Assembly (NCBI GenBank): GCA_016184225.1
Contig: JACPDA010000004.1
Location: 538,763-602,762 of the forward strand
Origin: Candidatus Daviesbacteria bacterium
Lineage (GTDB): Bacteria > Patescibacteriota > Microgenomatia > Daviesbacterales > UBA10151
Length of the DNA: 64,000 nt
Direction: 5' to 3'
The first letter of the stretch is position 1, and each line of letters starts with the position of its first letter. Shown here piece after piece: positions 17,789 to 19,210 of this stretch. The notes under the pieces were generated by a model. That model was not told the DNA's origin. It ran no database searches and was given only the letters and a program-made list of their open reading frames with translations. A program made the position numbers and the translations under genes.

Positions 17789-18748
17789 ATGTTAATTGAT
17801 GAAGTAGAAATTACGCTAAAAGCCGGGCACGGCGGGCCGGGCAGGGTTTCTTTTAATCCCGGTAAAAAAAGCGGACCAAATGGGGGAAACGGCGGTAAAG
17901 GCGGGGATATTTATGTCAGTGTTACTTCAGATCTTCGGGCTCTGAACCAATTTTCCAAGACAAAATTAAGTGAGGCGGAAAACGGGCAAATGGGAGGTAA
18001 TTTTCAAAAATCAGGCAGGGATGGGAAAGACCTGGAAATAATATTACCTCTTGGAACTGAGCTAACAGATTTAAAAACAGGAGAGAAAATGATCCTTGAT
18101 GATTTAAATTTCCGGATTTTAATTTGTAAAGGGGGATTGGGAGGTAGGGGCAATTTTGAAATGAGGTCTTCCAAGATGACAACCCCGATGTATGCCCAAA
18201 AAGGCTTATCCGGAGAAGAGAGATTTTTCAAAGTGGAGCTAAAATTTATTGCCGACTTTGGACTTATTGGTTTACCAAATGCCGGCAAAAGCAGCCTGTT
18301 AAATGAGCTGACTGCAGCTAATGCTAAAATCGCAGATTACCCTTTCACTACATTGGAACCTAATTTAGGGGTAATTAAAAGCCTGCCTGCCGGTAGGCAG
18401 GTTATTGCTGATATTCCGGGTTTGATAGAAGGGGCTGCGGAAGGCAAGGGTTTAGGGATAAAGTTTCTAAAACATATTGAGAAAGTTAAATTATTGCTAC
18501 ATGTTGTCCCGGCAGATTCGGAAAATATCGTAAAGAATTATCAAGTAGTCAGAAAAGAGTTAGAAAAATACAATCCGGAATTAATTGAAAAGCCGGAAAT
18601 GATAATTTTAACTAAGACTGATTTGGTAGATAAAAAACAAGTAAAAGAAAAGATTAACAAGTTGAAAAAGTTCAAGAAAAAAGTACTTCCTGTCTCAATC
18701 CATGATTGGGATAGTTTAAAAGAATTGGAAGAATCTCTGGTAAAGTAA
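17789..18748 (+). CDS. obg: GTPase Obg
   Basis: Gly-rich Obg fold (GGNGGKGGDIY) and G-domain motifs GLPNAGKSSLL and DIPGLIEGA. Confidence 0.85.
   Translation: MLIDEVEITLKAGHGGPGRVSFNPGKKSGPNGGNGGKGGDIYVSVTSDLRALNQFSKTKLSEAENGQMGGNFQKSGRDGKDLEIILPLGTELTDLKTGEKMILDDLNFRILICKGGLGGRGNFEMRSSKMTTPMYAQKGLSGEERFFKVELKFIADFGLIGLPNAGKSSLLNELTAANAKIADYPFTTLEPNLGVIKSLPAGRQVIADIPGLIEGAAEGKGLGIKFLKHIEKVKLLLHVVPADSENIVKNYQVVRKELEKYNPELIEKPEMIILTKTDLVDKKQVKEKINKLKKFKKKVLPVSIHDWDSLKELEESLVK
18676..18748. repeat. obg 3'-end segment, copy 1 of a direct repeat
   Basis: About 85 percent identical to 19139..19210. Both encode ...KKV(L/I)PVSIHDWD(S/T)LKELE(E/R)SL(V)K*. Confidence 0.7.
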
Positions 18749-18824
18749 AATACGCAAAATAAGTTATTGATTGATATACAAAATCTATCTTGTTTTTTAT
18801 CTTAAATAGAGTTAAGTTAATATC

Positions 18825-19139
18825 GTGGATGAAAACAAATTTAAGGCTATAATTGAAGAAGCTATAAATAAAGCCATTGAACCTGTTAAAGAACAACTCA
18901 ATGGAGTAGTAACTAGGTTGGATGATCCGGACACGGGGTTAAAAAGAATTAATGATAGATTAGATGCCAATACCAGAGCCGTCATGGAACTTGAAACAAC
19001 AGTCAAAGGATATGGGGATATGTACAAAATAAATGATTCTAATCTTAGAAAGATGGAAAAGAGGGTGGAGACTTTGGAAGATAAAGCCGGTGTAGTTGTA
19101 CCGGAGGAATTTCATCTTGCAGCAGCGGCAGATATCTAA
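18825..19139 (+). CDS. Small coiled-coil protein (paralog of 8660..8947) lying between the duplicated obg tails
   Basis: 104-aa protein. Its C-terminal half is homologous to the 95-aa ORF next to tRNA-Thr. Confidence 0.45.
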   Translation: MDENKFKAIIEEAINKAIEPVKEQLNGVVTRLDDPDTGLKRINDRLDANTRAVMELETTVKGYGDMYKINDSNLRKMEKRVETLEDKAGVVVPEEFHLAAAADI

Positions 19140-19210
19140 GAAAAAAGTAATCCCCGTTTCAATCCATGATTGGGATACTTTAAAAGAACTGGAAAGGTCC
19201 CTGAAGTGAT
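19139..19210. repeat. obg 3'-end segment, copy 2 (free-standing, encodes an alternative intact C-terminus)
   Basis: Read in the obg frame it gives KKKVIPVSIHDWDTLKELERSLK*. Confidence 0.7.

What the first reader, a model, noticed from the sequence alone, without database searches (positions are those of the whole stretch)
18676..19210. The obg 3' end is duplicated around a small coiled-coil gene, and a paralogous small gene lies beside tRNA-Thr
About 70 nt encoding the last ~23 residues of Obg occur twice (18676..18748 and 19139..19210, about 85 percent identical). They bracket a 390-bp segment that holds a 104-aa coiled-coil ORF. The second copy still encodes an intact alternative Obg C-terminus. 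The 104-aa protein is homologous over its C-terminal half to the 95-aa ORF at 8660..8947, which sits in another apparent insertion hotspot: tRNA-Thr, three hairpins, this small gene, then a truncated nucleotidyltransferase fragment. This suggests a tiny mobile cassette that inserts at gene or tRNA 3' ends and carries a replacement copy of the target end.
Basis: seen in the sequence. Interest (0 to 1): 0.6.

Follow-up and report, generated by a model that had tools for sequence, protein, structure and literature searches.

The report
Recombination scar duplicating the obg end
In this Candidatus Daviesbacteria genome a small coiled-coil gene was spliced in behind the essential GTPase gene obg, together with a foreign copy of obg's last 24 codons, so the native obg end now sits just downstream as a dead relic; it looks like a footprint of recombination between related strains, not a self-mobile cassette.

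Summary
The repeat is real: 18674-18739 and 19138-19203, 66 nt, 85% identical. Seven independent assemblies that span both copies carry it base for base. It brackets a genuine gene, ORF104 (18825-19139, dN/dS 0.18).

Five related Daviesbacteria have an empty site, with obg followed directly by gatC. The sequence after copy 2 is collinear with one of those empty sites. So copy 2 is the displaced native obg end. Copy 1, a conserved promoter-like element and ORF104 make up a 464-bp insert. In two relatives copy 2 has decayed (a stop codon; a frameshift).

The window's obg is a mosaic. It switches to the type of the cassette-bearing lineage about 50-70 nt upstream of the repeat (Fisher p = 3e-5). 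ORF104 is far less diverged at synonymous sites than its flanks (dS 0.36 against 1.2-1.7). No recombinase gene is present.

The best reading is homologous recombination anchored in obg, with an originally illegitimate right-hand join at an A-run (HFIR-like). The site is an obg-gatC hotspot whose gatC 5' end shows mirror-image duplications in relatives.

Not supported:
- ORF104 and the 95-aa ORF are not homologous (hhalign probability 7.6%).
- Six other ORF104-family loci have no duplicated gene end flanking the gene.
- The tRNA-Thr 3' end is not duplicated.

This is an ordinary but tidy case.

The parts
17789..18748 (+). obg (319 aa), the functional gene. It is a mosaic: 17789 to about 18601 resembles the empty-site lineages, and about 18625 to 18748 resembles the cassette-bearing lineage.
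   Evidence: Pfam GTP1_OBG 1e-37 and MMR_HSR1 8e-26. Informative sites: 31 of 34 match the empty-site group before 18602, and 7 of 10 match the cassette lineage from 18625 on, Fisher p = 3e-5.
18674..18748 (+). Repeat copy 1: the imported obg 3' end now in use (24 codons plus TAA).
   Evidence: The peptide ends ...VLPVS...SLVK*, as in cassette-bearing L075. It is 88% identical in nucleotides to copy 1 of L075 and of L002.
18771..18818 (+). Conserved upstream element TTGATATACAAAATCTATCTTGTTTTTT plus a -10-like TAAGTT that ends 6 nt before the GTG. This is the putative ORF104 promoter and would give a leaderless mRNA (inferred).
   Evidence: The same element precedes ORF104-family genes at 8 of 10 other loci; it is partial in L030 and weak in L077. 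It is 98% identical between the window and L002. The simple promoter scan did not flag it.
18825..19139 (+). ORF104: a 104-aa two-helix coiled-coil protein of an uncharacterised Daviesbacteria/Microgenomates family. This is the cargo of the insert.
   Evidence: 85 homologues and 428 representatives of 50%-identity clusters at E <= 0.001. dN/dS is 0.18 against L075. AlphaFold pLDDT is 93.8, with helices at 3-32 and 39-88. No Pfam match reaches its curated threshold, the one NCBIfam hit is well below its cut-off, and PHROG and PADLOC give nothing.
19138..19212 (+). Repeat copy 2: the displaced native obg 3' end, a non-functional relic. It is still open here (23 codons, then TGA and TAA).
   Evidence: It is collinear with the empty site of L001 through the gatC promoter. 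The homologous relic carries TGG>TAG in L075, and a 1-nt deletion plus D>V in L002. No ORF of 40 aa or more ends here.
19224..19252 (+). gatC promoter-like site (TTAACA-17-TATAAT), part of the native spacer downstream of the relic.
   Evidence: It matches 11 of 12 consensus positions. It is conserved in L001, L003 and L002.
19264..19557 (+). gatC, the right-hand core gene of the hotspot.
   Evidence: tblastn against relatives and Pfam GatC on the called genes.
8660..8947 (-). ORF95: a separate small coiled-coil family. It is NOT part of the obg feature and is listed only because the finding linked the two.
   Evidence: 322 homologues. hhalign against the ORF104 family gives probability 7.6%. 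No flanking duplication was found.

Best explanation
The repeat is the scar of a recombinational insertion in the variable gap between the core genes obg and gatC.

A 464-bp segment (18674-19137) came from another Daviesbacteria lineage in which an ORF104-family gene lies directly behind obg. The segment holds that lineage's obg 3' end, a promoter-like element and ORF104. It was joined on the left by homologous recombination inside obg, with the crossover at about 18601-18625. On the right it was joined at the A-run AAGAAAAAAG, 24 codons before the recipient's obg stop. So obg now ends in the imported tail (copy 1), and the recipient's own tail (copy 2) was pushed downstream as an untranslated relic.

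The first such join was probably illegitimate, at A-rich microhomology. That would be homology-facilitated illegitimate recombination (HFIR) during DNA uptake. Once it existed, the relic supplied a right-hand homology arm, so the whole module could be copied into empty obg sites of diverged relatives by ordinary double crossover. Recombination between the two repeats could also delete it precisely.

Shown: the insertion, its polarity, the mosaic obg, recent exchange between lineages, decay of the relic in relatives, and the absence of a recombinase gene.
Inferred: the HFIR origin, uptake by natural transformation, the relic's role as a homology arm, and precise excision.

ORF104 is a passenger gene. 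It has its own promoter-like element and encodes a two-helix coiled coil of unknown role.
For: (1) Empty sites exist in L001, L008, L037, L038 and L040. The spacer after copy 2 matches the L001 spacer (GATAAAyTGCyCTCTATTAACAGAG..AATCAAGTATAATCGGATCAT).
(2) The same cassette and the same right junction GATATCTAAGAAAAA(A)GTAAT occur in L002/L039 and L075. There the relic is broken (a stop; a frameshift).
(3) The window's Obg is closest to empty-site genomes (L038 84.7%, L037 84.0%, L001 83.4%) and less close to L002 (80.8%) and L075 (80.3%). Yet from 18625 on it carries the cassette lineage's alleles at 7 of 10 sites, against 1 of 34 before that (p = 3e-5). The switch lies upstream of the repeat edge.
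(4) dS between the window and L075 is 0.36 for ORF104. It is 1.73 for the obg 5' part, 1.17 for the obg 3' part and 1.55 for gatC. Identity drops from 85-98% to 42-48% immediately after copy 2.
(5) Copy 1 against copy 2 shows 6 synonymous and 4 nonsynonymous differences (dN/dS 0.12). An in-place duplication followed by neutral decay of one copy would predict about 11 nonsynonymous changes (Poisson p = 0.012).
(6) A possible donor arrangement exists. In L076 and L079, obg's stop is followed directly by the ORF104 unit with no recognisable relic.
(7) The gatC side shows the mirror image. In L002 and L006 an NYN gene has captured the gatC promoter plus 10-13 codons. L007 keeps the promoter plus a 17-codon gatC fragment. 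L004 has the plain NYN-gatC arrangement.
(8) L007 has a different cargo at the same obg position, again with a tail relic.
(9) No integrase or transposase lies in the insert or in the L002 and L007 gaps.
(10) HFIR with 3-10-bp joints is documented in three naturally transformable species (PMC6382021). Natural competence and arm-mediated homologous insertion are shown in Patescibacteria (PMC10633639).
Against: The actual donor and the original junction are not available, so the microhomology join is inferred from an A-run only.

To my knowledge HFIR events seen in experiments more often delete recipient DNA than duplicate it.

Two different cargos (window and L007) begin their relic within about 5 nt of the same A-run. 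That also fits a site-specific enzyme acting in trans.

L079 has a 16/18 A/T-rich match to the start of the obg tail exactly at its junction (shuffle p about 0.05). So L076 and L079 might be old insertions whose relic has decayed, not the native arrangement.

The tail comparisons rest on about 10 substitutions. Obg tails of all lineages are 82-88% alike, so assigning each copy to a donor or recipient type is weak on nucleotide identity alone.

Flanking divergence (dS above 1.2, about 65-85% nucleotide identity) is high for efficient RecA-mediated exchange.

Whether this genome has competence and recA genes was not checked.
Confidence: 0.55

Rival explanations
1. A miniature integrative element mobilised in trans. 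A tyrosine or serine recombinase encoded elsewhere recognises a site in the conserved obg tail. The 464-bp circle (tail plus promoter plus ORF104) then integrates as a genomic island does at a tRNA 3' end, restoring the gene with its own copy.
For: Direct repeats of the target gene's 3' end flank the insert, and the upstream copy keeps the gene intact. The copies share a 19-nt identical core, TCAATCCATGATTGGGATA, containing the small inverted repeat CAATC-CAT-GATTG (read directly). The junction is the same in three genomes. A different cargo sits at nearly the same position in L007. Empty sites occur in close relatives. The same window has a classical att-like triplication of the tRNA-Asp 3' end, so integrase-type events have hit this genome.
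Against: No recombinase gene lies in the insert or in the larger L002 and L007 gaps. Donor-type alleles in obg start 50-70 nt upstream of the repeat, which a crossover inside an att core cannot produce. Six other loci with ORF104-family genes have no duplicated gene end. The ORF104 unit has no conserved right end beyond its stop codon. The gatC-side duplications have different lengths (10, 13 and 17 codons), as expected of illegitimate joins and not of a fixed att site.
Confidence: 0.15
2. Campbell-type insertion. A circular DNA carrying an obg 3' fragment plus ORF104 arose from a relative's obg-ORF104 region, or by recombination between the two repeats in a carrier. It then integrated by a single homologous crossover in the obg tail, which necessarily duplicates the homologous segment.
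For: A single crossover of a circle gives exactly this topology: an intact gene, the cargo, then a 5'-truncated copy of the gene end. It explains the mirror-image 3'-truncated gatC 5' copies equally well. No dedicated enzyme is needed. The 66-nt repeats could regenerate the circle.
Against: The homologous segment on such a circle would be the duplicated 66-75 nt only, yet donor-type sequence extends about 50-70 nt further upstream. A second event would be needed to explain that. A 464-bp circle is an unusual substrate, and DNA taken up by transformation enters as linear single strands (general knowledge). There is no evidence for circles.
Confidence: 0.15
3. Duplication in place. The obg tail was duplicated within this lineage, for example by replication slippage or unequal crossing-over around a pre-existing obg-ORF104 arrangement. 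The downstream copy has simply decayed since then, and no foreign DNA was involved.
For: The cassette is old enough (11% nucleotide divergence between the window and L075) that 15% divergence between the copies could have built up after a perfect duplication. L076 and L079 show that obg-ORF104 adjacency exists without a relic.
Against: The two copies differ mainly at synonymous sites (6:4, dN/dS 0.12), whereas one neutrally decaying copy predicts about 11 nonsynonymous changes (p = 0.012). The relics of the window and L075 also differ 6:4 (binomial p = 0.008). obg is a mosaic. ORF104's dS is 3-5 times lower than that of its flanks. Copy 2 is collinear with empty-site spacers.
Confidence: 0.05
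4. Assembly artefact: a chimeric join or a collapsed strain variant created the second tail.
For: The window comes from a metagenome-assembled genome, and the copies differ as strain variants might.
Against: Seven independent assemblies from different sequencing runs span both copies with 100% identity over 671 nt. Homologous structures with lineage-specific decay occur in an NCBI genome (L002), a JGI contig (L039) and a Logan contig (L075).
Confidence: 0.01

Closest known systems
Homology-facilitated illegitimate recombination (HFIR) in naturally transformable bacteria (Acinetobacter baylyi, Streptococcus pneumoniae, Pseudomonas stutzeri; summarised in PMC6382021)
   Same: One flank is a homologous anchor in a conserved gene, with donor alleles running into the anchor. 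The other junction has no extended homology and sits at a short A-rich stretch. Foreign DNA is added without any dedicated recombinase. The host clade is known to include naturally competent members (PMC10633639).
   Different: This case is inferred from genome comparison, not observed. The outcome is a 24-codon duplication of recipient DNA, not the more usual deletion (my recollection of the primary papers, which could not be read here). The resulting relic seems then to have served as a second homology arm for further spread.
Genomic islands and integrative elements that insert in the 3' end of tRNA, tmRNA or protein genes and carry a replacement end (attL/attR direct repeats)
   Same: The target gene's 3' end is present twice as direct repeats around the insert. 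The gene stays intact through the element-borne copy. Empty sites exist in relatives.
   Different: There is no integrase. The insert is only 464 bp with one cargo gene. The repeats are 85% identical, not identical in a defined core plus arms. The donor/recipient switch lies outside the repeat. Other copies of the cargo gene are not flanked by duplicated gene ends.
Integration hotspots between conserved core genes, turned over by recombination in the flanking core genes (general concept from comparative genomics of horizontal gene transfer; recalled, not read here)
   Same: The obg-gatC gap holds nothing in some Daviesbacteria. In others it holds ORF104, an unknown 104-aa gene, NYN nuclease genes, an SMC/ABC-like ATPase, or a methyltransferase. 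Both flanking core genes show recombination scars.
   Different: The scale is very small (0.05-3.2 kb). The scars are duplications of the core genes' own ends, including capture of the gatC promoter and first codons by an NYN gene.
Small coiled-coil protein families (Pfam XhlA PF10779, NPV_P10 PF05531, DUF1664, HSBP1)
   Same: ORF104 and ORF95 are about 100-aa, largely helical, heptad-rich proteins. They give weak hits to these models.
   Different: All hits are below the curated thresholds (for example XhlA 17.9 against 34.7 bits for ORF95, and P10 20.6 against 29.8 bits for ORF104). They are typical of compositional coiled-coil similarity. Neither protein can be placed in any of these families.

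Membership tests
Site-specific integrative element (integrase-borne island at a gene 3' end) | Recombinase (tyrosine or serine integrase) encoded in or next to the element | tested here: not met
   The insert holds only ORF104. Pfam, PHROG, NCBIfam and PADLOC scans of ORF104 and of all larger ORFs in the L002 and L007 gaps found no recombinase. A recombinase elsewhere in the genome cannot be excluded.
Site-specific integrative element (integrase-borne island at a gene 3' end) | Direct repeats of the target end flank the insert, with an intact gene on one side | tested here: met
   A 66-nt repeat at 85% identity; obg stays intact through copy 1.
Site-specific integrative element (integrase-borne island at a gene 3' end) | The switch from host to element sequence falls inside the repeated core | tested here: not met
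   Cassette-lineage alleles start at 18625, which is 49 nt upstream of the repeat edge at 18674. Five of 7 informative sites between 18625 and 18664 are donor-type, against 1 of 34 further upstream.
Site-specific integrative element (integrase-borne island at a gene 3' end) | Other copies of the element are also bounded by duplicated target ends | tested here: not met
   ORF104-family genes at L028, L030, L032, L033 and L035 show no upstream/downstream match by blastn or tblastx. L077 shows no obg-tail copy.
Transposon / MITE | Terminal inverted repeats and a short (2-15 bp) target-site duplication | tested here: not met
   No inverted repeats were found at the insert ends. The duplication is 66-75 nt and diverged.
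HFIR-type recombinant | A homologous anchor on one side, with donor alleles extending into it | tested here: met
   obg is a mosaic with a breakpoint at about 18601-18625.
HFIR-type recombinant | The other junction lies at a 3-10-bp microhomology without extended homology | tested here: inconclusive
   The junction GATATCTAA|GAAAAAAGTA lies in an A-run. An L079-like arrangement has TAAAAAGAGAAAA after the ORF104 stop. The true donor sequence is unknown.
HFIR-type recombinant | A donor arrangement (cargo natively next to the anchor gene) exists | tested here: met
   L076 and L079 have obg's stop followed directly by the ORF104 unit, with no recognisable relic. On the mirror side, L004 has NYN-TAAATATG-gatC. 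Caveat: L079 has a marginal 16/18 junction match (p about 0.05).
HFIR-type recombinant | The host has DNA-uptake and RecA machinery | not tested
   Only a 64-kb window was available. Competence is shown for Saccharibacteria, another Patescibacteria lineage (PMC10633639).
ORF104/ORF95 as one paralogous family | Significant sequence or profile similarity | tested here: not met
   hhalign of the 75-sequence and 67-sequence alignments gives probability 7.6% over 15 columns. tblastn in the window gives E about 1.
XhlA (PF10779) or other named coiled-coil Pfam families | Score above the Pfam gathering threshold | tested here: not met
   ORF95 scores 17.9 bits against XhlA, where the cut-off is 34.7. 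ORF104 has no XhlA hit, and its best hit is NPV_P10 at 20.6 bits against a cut-off of 29.8.

The most novel reading that the evidence does not exclude
The displaced obg tail is more than debris. Together with the imported tail it gives the ORF104 module two overlapping homology arms to one of the most conserved stretches of an essential gene (the SIHDWD-coding core). That would turn a plain gene into a recombinase-free, self-targeting knock-in cassette. Competent Patescibacteria could copy it into any empty obg site, even across lineages with dS above 1, and could lose it again precisely by repeat recombination. If the gatC-side NYN modules work the same way, this would be a general, enzyme-independent way of moving genes in these reduced genomes.
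Probability: 0.25. Interest if true: 0.55.

Novelty: new member of a known kind. Interest (0 to 1): 0.33.

Why it matters
It gives a clean, dated example of how genes move between uncultivated CPR/Patescibacteria lineages without mobile-element enzymes. Recombination is anchored in an essential gene, the gene's end is replaced, and the old end stays behind as a molecular fossil whose decay (intact, then a stop, then a frameshift, then gone) orders the events.

It also identifies the obg-gatC gap as a small integration hotspot in Daviesbacteria. In relatives the gap holds defence-like cargo (an NYN nuclease, an SMC/ABC-like ATPase, a methyltransferase). In those relatives an inserted gene can capture the promoter and first codons of gatC.

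For annotation, it warns that the 23-codon open frame after ORF104 is a relic and not a gene. It also shows that ORF104 and ORF95 represent two separate, widespread, unnamed coiled-coil families.

Tried and rejected
(1) Paralogy of ORF104 and ORF95. I tested it by BLASTP, by tblastn within the window and by profile-profile comparison of the two families. Rejected.

(2) 'Every paralogue is bounded by a duplicated target end'. I tested five non-obg loci by blastn and tblastx, comparing upstream with downstream, and checked L077 against the obg tail. Rejected.

(3) A duplicate of the tRNA-Thr 3' end anywhere in the window, allowing up to 3 mismatches, or across ORF95. None was found.

(4) Function of ORF104. 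Pfam, PHROG, NCBIfam and PADLOC gave nothing above threshold. A PDB profile search returned only trimeric coiled coils (adhesin stalks, spike HR1, sigma-1), which I take as compositional matches. Foldseek of a confident model against the PDB gave no hits.

(5) A decayed relic in L076 and L079. Smith-Waterman alignment with shuffles gave p about 0.05 for L079 and was not significant for L076. This stays unresolved.

(6) Assigning each tail copy to a donor or recipient type by nucleotide identity alone. All tails are 82-88% alike, so this has no resolving power.

(7) The L007 cargo (a 104-aa minus-strand ORF) has no relatives among the fetched loci and no family hit.

(8) The primary HFIR paper (PMC122324) is not held in the library, so whether HFIR can produce duplications could not be checked in the source.

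Full report
ORGANISM AND LOCUS

ORF104 is identical to a protein annotated in a Candidatus Daviesbacteria metagenome-assembled genome (P0001, HYU45_03115). The closest obg loci all come from Daviesbacteria or other Microgenomates. The local gene order is htpX (16853-17776), obg (17789-18748), ORF104 (18825-19139), gatC (19264-19557), then gatA.

OBSERVATION

The repeat is real. Positions 18674-18739 and 19138-19203 match over 66 nt without gaps at 85% identity (BLASTN E = 8e-17). 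With a one-codon indel the match runs on to the stop codons. The two copies encode KKKVLPVSIHDWDSLKELEESLVK* and KKKVIPVSIHDWDTLKELERSLK**. The TAA of ORF104 overlaps the first bases of copy 2.

I tested the first and last 26 residues of 58 genes in the window, and this is the only gene-end duplicate.

The structure is not an assembly artefact. Seven independent run assemblies span both copies and are 100% identical over 671 nt.

WHICH COPY IS NATIVE

Five relatives have an empty site, with obg followed directly by gatC: L001, L008, L037, L038 and L040. The sequence after copy 2 in the window matches base for base the spacer after the single obg end of L001, and the end of the L003 spacer. That sequence is GATAAACTGCTCTCTATTAACAGAG...AATCAAGTATAATCGGATCAT, which includes an 11/12 promoter-like site for gatC.

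Copy 2 is therefore the original obg end. The insert is the 464 bp from 18674 to 19137. It consists of a replacement tail, a 76-nt spacer and ORF104.

The same cassette, with the same right junction (GATATCTAAGAAAAA(A)GTAAT), is present in L002 (the same as L039) and in L075. In those genomes copy 2 is visibly dead. L075 has TGG>TAG, and L002 has a 1-nt deletion and a D>V change. In the window the relic is still open, but it has no start codon and is not joined to obg.

HOW IT GOT INTO THIS LINEAGE

The window's Obg protein is closest to empty-site genomes: L038 84.7%, L037 84.0%, L001 83.4%. It is less close to the cassette bearers L002 (80.8%) and L075 (80.3%), which are 91.3% identical to each other.

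I examined the 43 alignment positions where L075 and L002 agree with each other and differ from L038, L037, L001 and L003. Up to 18601 the window follows the empty-site group at 31 of 34 positions. From 18625 on it follows the cassette lineage at 7 of 10 positions (Fisher p = 3e-5). The switch lies 50-70 nt upstream of the repeat edge at 18674.

Synonymous divergence between the window and L075 is 0.36 for ORF104. It is 1.73 for the 5' part of obg, 1.17 for the last 49 codons of obg, and 1.55 for gatC.

Nucleotide identity between the window and L002 is 98% in the spacer, 90-91% in ORF104, 88% in copy 1 and 85% in copy 2. It then drops to 42% immediately after copy 2.

So the cassette was exchanged between lineages long after they split. 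In the window's lineage it entered on a DNA segment whose left end recombined inside obg. A crossover confined to an att core inside the repeat cannot produce that pattern.

WAS THE UPSTREAM TAIL FOREIGN?

The two copies differ by about 6 synonymous and 4 nonsynonymous changes (dN/dS 0.12). If a perfect duplicate had formed in place and one copy had then drifted neutrally, about 11 nonsynonymous changes would be expected for the observed synonymous divergence (Poisson p = 0.012).

The relics of the window and L075 also differ 6:4 (binomial p = 0.008 against neutrality). Most of their divergence therefore arose while they were working gene ends in separate lineages.

The numbers are small, and all obg tails are 82-88% alike. 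I treat this as supporting evidence, not proof.

ORIGIN OF THE DUPLICATION (INFERENCE)

In L076 and L079, obg's stop codon is followed within 1-4 nt by the same conserved upstream element and an ORF104-family gene (67% and 48% identical). No recognisable relic follows. L079 has only a 16/18 A/T-rich match at the junction (shuffle p about 0.05), and L076 has nothing significant. This is a plausible donor arrangement.

Suppose DNA from such a genome enters a genome with obg directly followed by gatC. It has homology on the left only. The right end must then be joined illegitimately. The observed join lies in the A-run AAGAAAAAAG, 24 codons before the recipient's stop, which would leave the recipient's tail downstream.

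That is the logic of homology-facilitated illegitimate recombination. HFIR is RecA-dependent, uses a one-sided anchor and 3-10-bp joints, and is documented in three transformable species (PMC6382021). Natural competence and arm-mediated homologous insertion have been demonstrated in Patescibacteria (PMC10633639).

The gatC side of the same gap shows the mirror image in relatives:
- In L002 an NYN-domain gene begins with the native gatC promoter and the first 13 gatC codons (MKLTLEQVKHVAK).
- In L006 an NYN gene begins with a gatC-like promoter and 10 gatC-like codons.
- L007 keeps the promoter plus 17 gatC codons as a fragment.
- L004 has the plain arrangement NYN-TAAATATG-gatC.

The duplicated lengths differ (10, 13 and 17 codons), as expected of illegitimate joins.

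L007 also carries a different cargo behind obg (an unknown 104-aa minus-strand ORF), followed by an obg-tail relic that starts within about 5 nt of the same A-run. That relic has a W>G change.

No recombinase was found in any of these gaps. What they do contain is an SMC/ABC-like ATPase with weak matches to defence ATPases, NYN nucleases and a small methyltransferase.

THE CARGO

ORF104 is a real gene. Its dN/dS is 0.18. It has 85 homologues in the word-indexed search and 428 representatives of 50%-identity clusters at E <= 0.001. The family shares the motif RLDDPDTGLxxINxRLDANT...VKGYGDMYKINDSNIRKMEKRLETLEE, with a variable number of 13-residue RLDDPDTGLAAIN units.

AlphaFold gives two long helices (3-32 and 39-88) with pLDDT 93.8. 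Nothing places the protein in a named family.

Across the eleven loci inspected, 8 of the 10 relatives carry the same upstream element as the window, TTTGATATACAAAATCTAyCTTGtwTTTT. It is followed 17 nt later by a -10-like TAAGAT/TAATAT hexamer that ends 6-12 nt before the start codon. It is partial in L030 and weak in L077. I read this as the gene's own promoter, giving a leaderless mRNA. That is an inference, and the simple consensus scan did not flag the site.

Family members elsewhere lie next to peptidase M1/EF-P (L028, L033), MazE/Fic (L030), LexA (L035), purQ (L077) and other genes. None has a duplicated gene end beside it.

THE SECOND HALF OF THE FINDING

ORF95 (8660-8947, minus strand) belongs to a different and larger family, with at least 322 hits. 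That family has its own conserved signature, including the nearly invariant AYLEDDTPTREE. A profile-profile comparison with the ORF104 family gives 7.6% probability over one heptad-like stretch.

There is no duplicate of the tRNA-Thr 3' end in the window. The 51-aa 'nucleotidyltransferase fragment' has only insignificant Pfam hits.

These are tRNA-Thr in the window, tRNA-His 10 nt away in L088, and tRNA-His about 0.9 kb away in L010. I did not follow this up.

VERDICT

The ideas of a self-mobile cassette family shared with the tRNA-Thr locus, and of paralogy between the two small proteins, are not supported.

The most likely mechanism is recombination between related strains in a small hotspot between two core genes. 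The join probably began as an illegitimate one that duplicated the gene end (confidence about 0.55). A recombinase acting in trans and a Campbell-type circle remain possible for the original event (about 0.15 each).

This is a new example of a known kind of event, in a poorly studied phylum. It has modest general interest.

Noticed in passing
window 12093-14262: The 3'-terminal 17 nt of tRNA-Asp (14189-14262, minus strand; GCGGGGCCGACGGGAAT on the + strand) occur three times: at 12094, 14048 and 14189, where none is expected by chance. The two extra copies each head a 147-nt repeat that is 99% identical (12093-12239 and 14047-14193). Between them lie a Fic/DOC-domain gene (12334-12960, minus strand), a 61-aa ORF and two unknown ORFs, with no integrase. 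This looks like a tRNA-Asp-targeted island with tandem att-like sites.
   Followed up: partly
L002 7343-8200; L006 1564-1689; L007 6553-6690 and 7292-7417; L004 5612-5737: In relatives, an NYN (LabA-like) nuclease gene lies directly upstream of gatC. In L002 and L006 it has captured the gatC promoter and the first 10-13 gatC codons as its own start. L007 retains a promoter plus a 17-codon gatC fragment. This mirrors the obg-tail duplication.
   Followed up: partly
L002 5165-5200 (within the ORF104 homologue): The ORF104 homologue of L002 is split by a 30-nt insertion (GCAAAGCTTGCGATAACTTCGTTATCTAAA). The insertion contains a perfect 6-bp hairpin (GATAAC-TTC-GTTATC) and an in-frame stop. The 72-aa product (P0021) is recorded on 22 contigs, so the split is real.
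   Followed up: no
window 18771-18818 and the upstream regions of L002, L028, L032, L033, L035, L075, L076, L079: A conserved upstream element of about 30 nt (TTTGATATACAAAATCTAyCTTGtwTTTT) plus a -10-like hexamer travels with ORF104-family genes at most loci inspected. It sits close enough to the start codon to suggest leaderless transcripts.
   Followed up: partly
window 18628-18641 and 18789-18802: A perfect 14-nt inverted repeat (AGATAAAAAACAAG / CTTGTTTTTTATCT) links the donor-type end of obg with the conserved ORF104 upstream element, 147 nt apart. It is only partly conserved in L002 and L075, and it may be chance in A/T-rich sequence.
   Followed up: no
window 8485-8947; L088 2501-2877; L010 1394-2662: ORF95-family genes lie next to or near tRNA genes in three of the four contexts examined: tRNA-Thr in the window (convergent, 100 nt away), tRNA-His 10 nt away in L088 (convergent), and tRNA-His about 0.9 kb away in L010. 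L090 has no tRNA.
   Followed up: partly
window 20218-20254, 56601-56637, 57679-57715, 58373-58409; 52265-52314 and 60889-60938: There are two families of dispersed hairpin-type repeats. One is TTTAGCTTTACACCTTCGAGGTG... with 4 copies. The other is a 50-nt palindromic unit, ACTCCCGGTGTG...CACACCGGGAGTG, with 2 copies at 94% identity. Both look like intergenic stem-loop elements.
   Followed up: no
window 15184-15219, 20926-21010, 51848-51883, 53583-53885; also 21334-21367, 21867-21900, 51683-51716: Short tandem-like motifs (GAGTCTAGAGTC... and GGTTACAGGTGACAGG...) recur at several places. One lies at the 3' end of the gatA reading frame, where it encodes a C-terminal extension (...[10 protein letters not shown]...).
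   Followed up: no
window 11593-11630, 12219-12314, 13175-13270: A shared 38-87-nt sequence (…TAATATACCAATACAAAACTTTGCAACAA…) occurs three times in intergenic regions of the tRNA-Asp island area. It may be a repeated promoter or regulatory region.
   Followed up: no
window 45148-50571: An ORF of 1807 aa contains large internal repeats (units of about 1.47 kb, 77-80% identical, plus 170-nt units).
   Followed up: no
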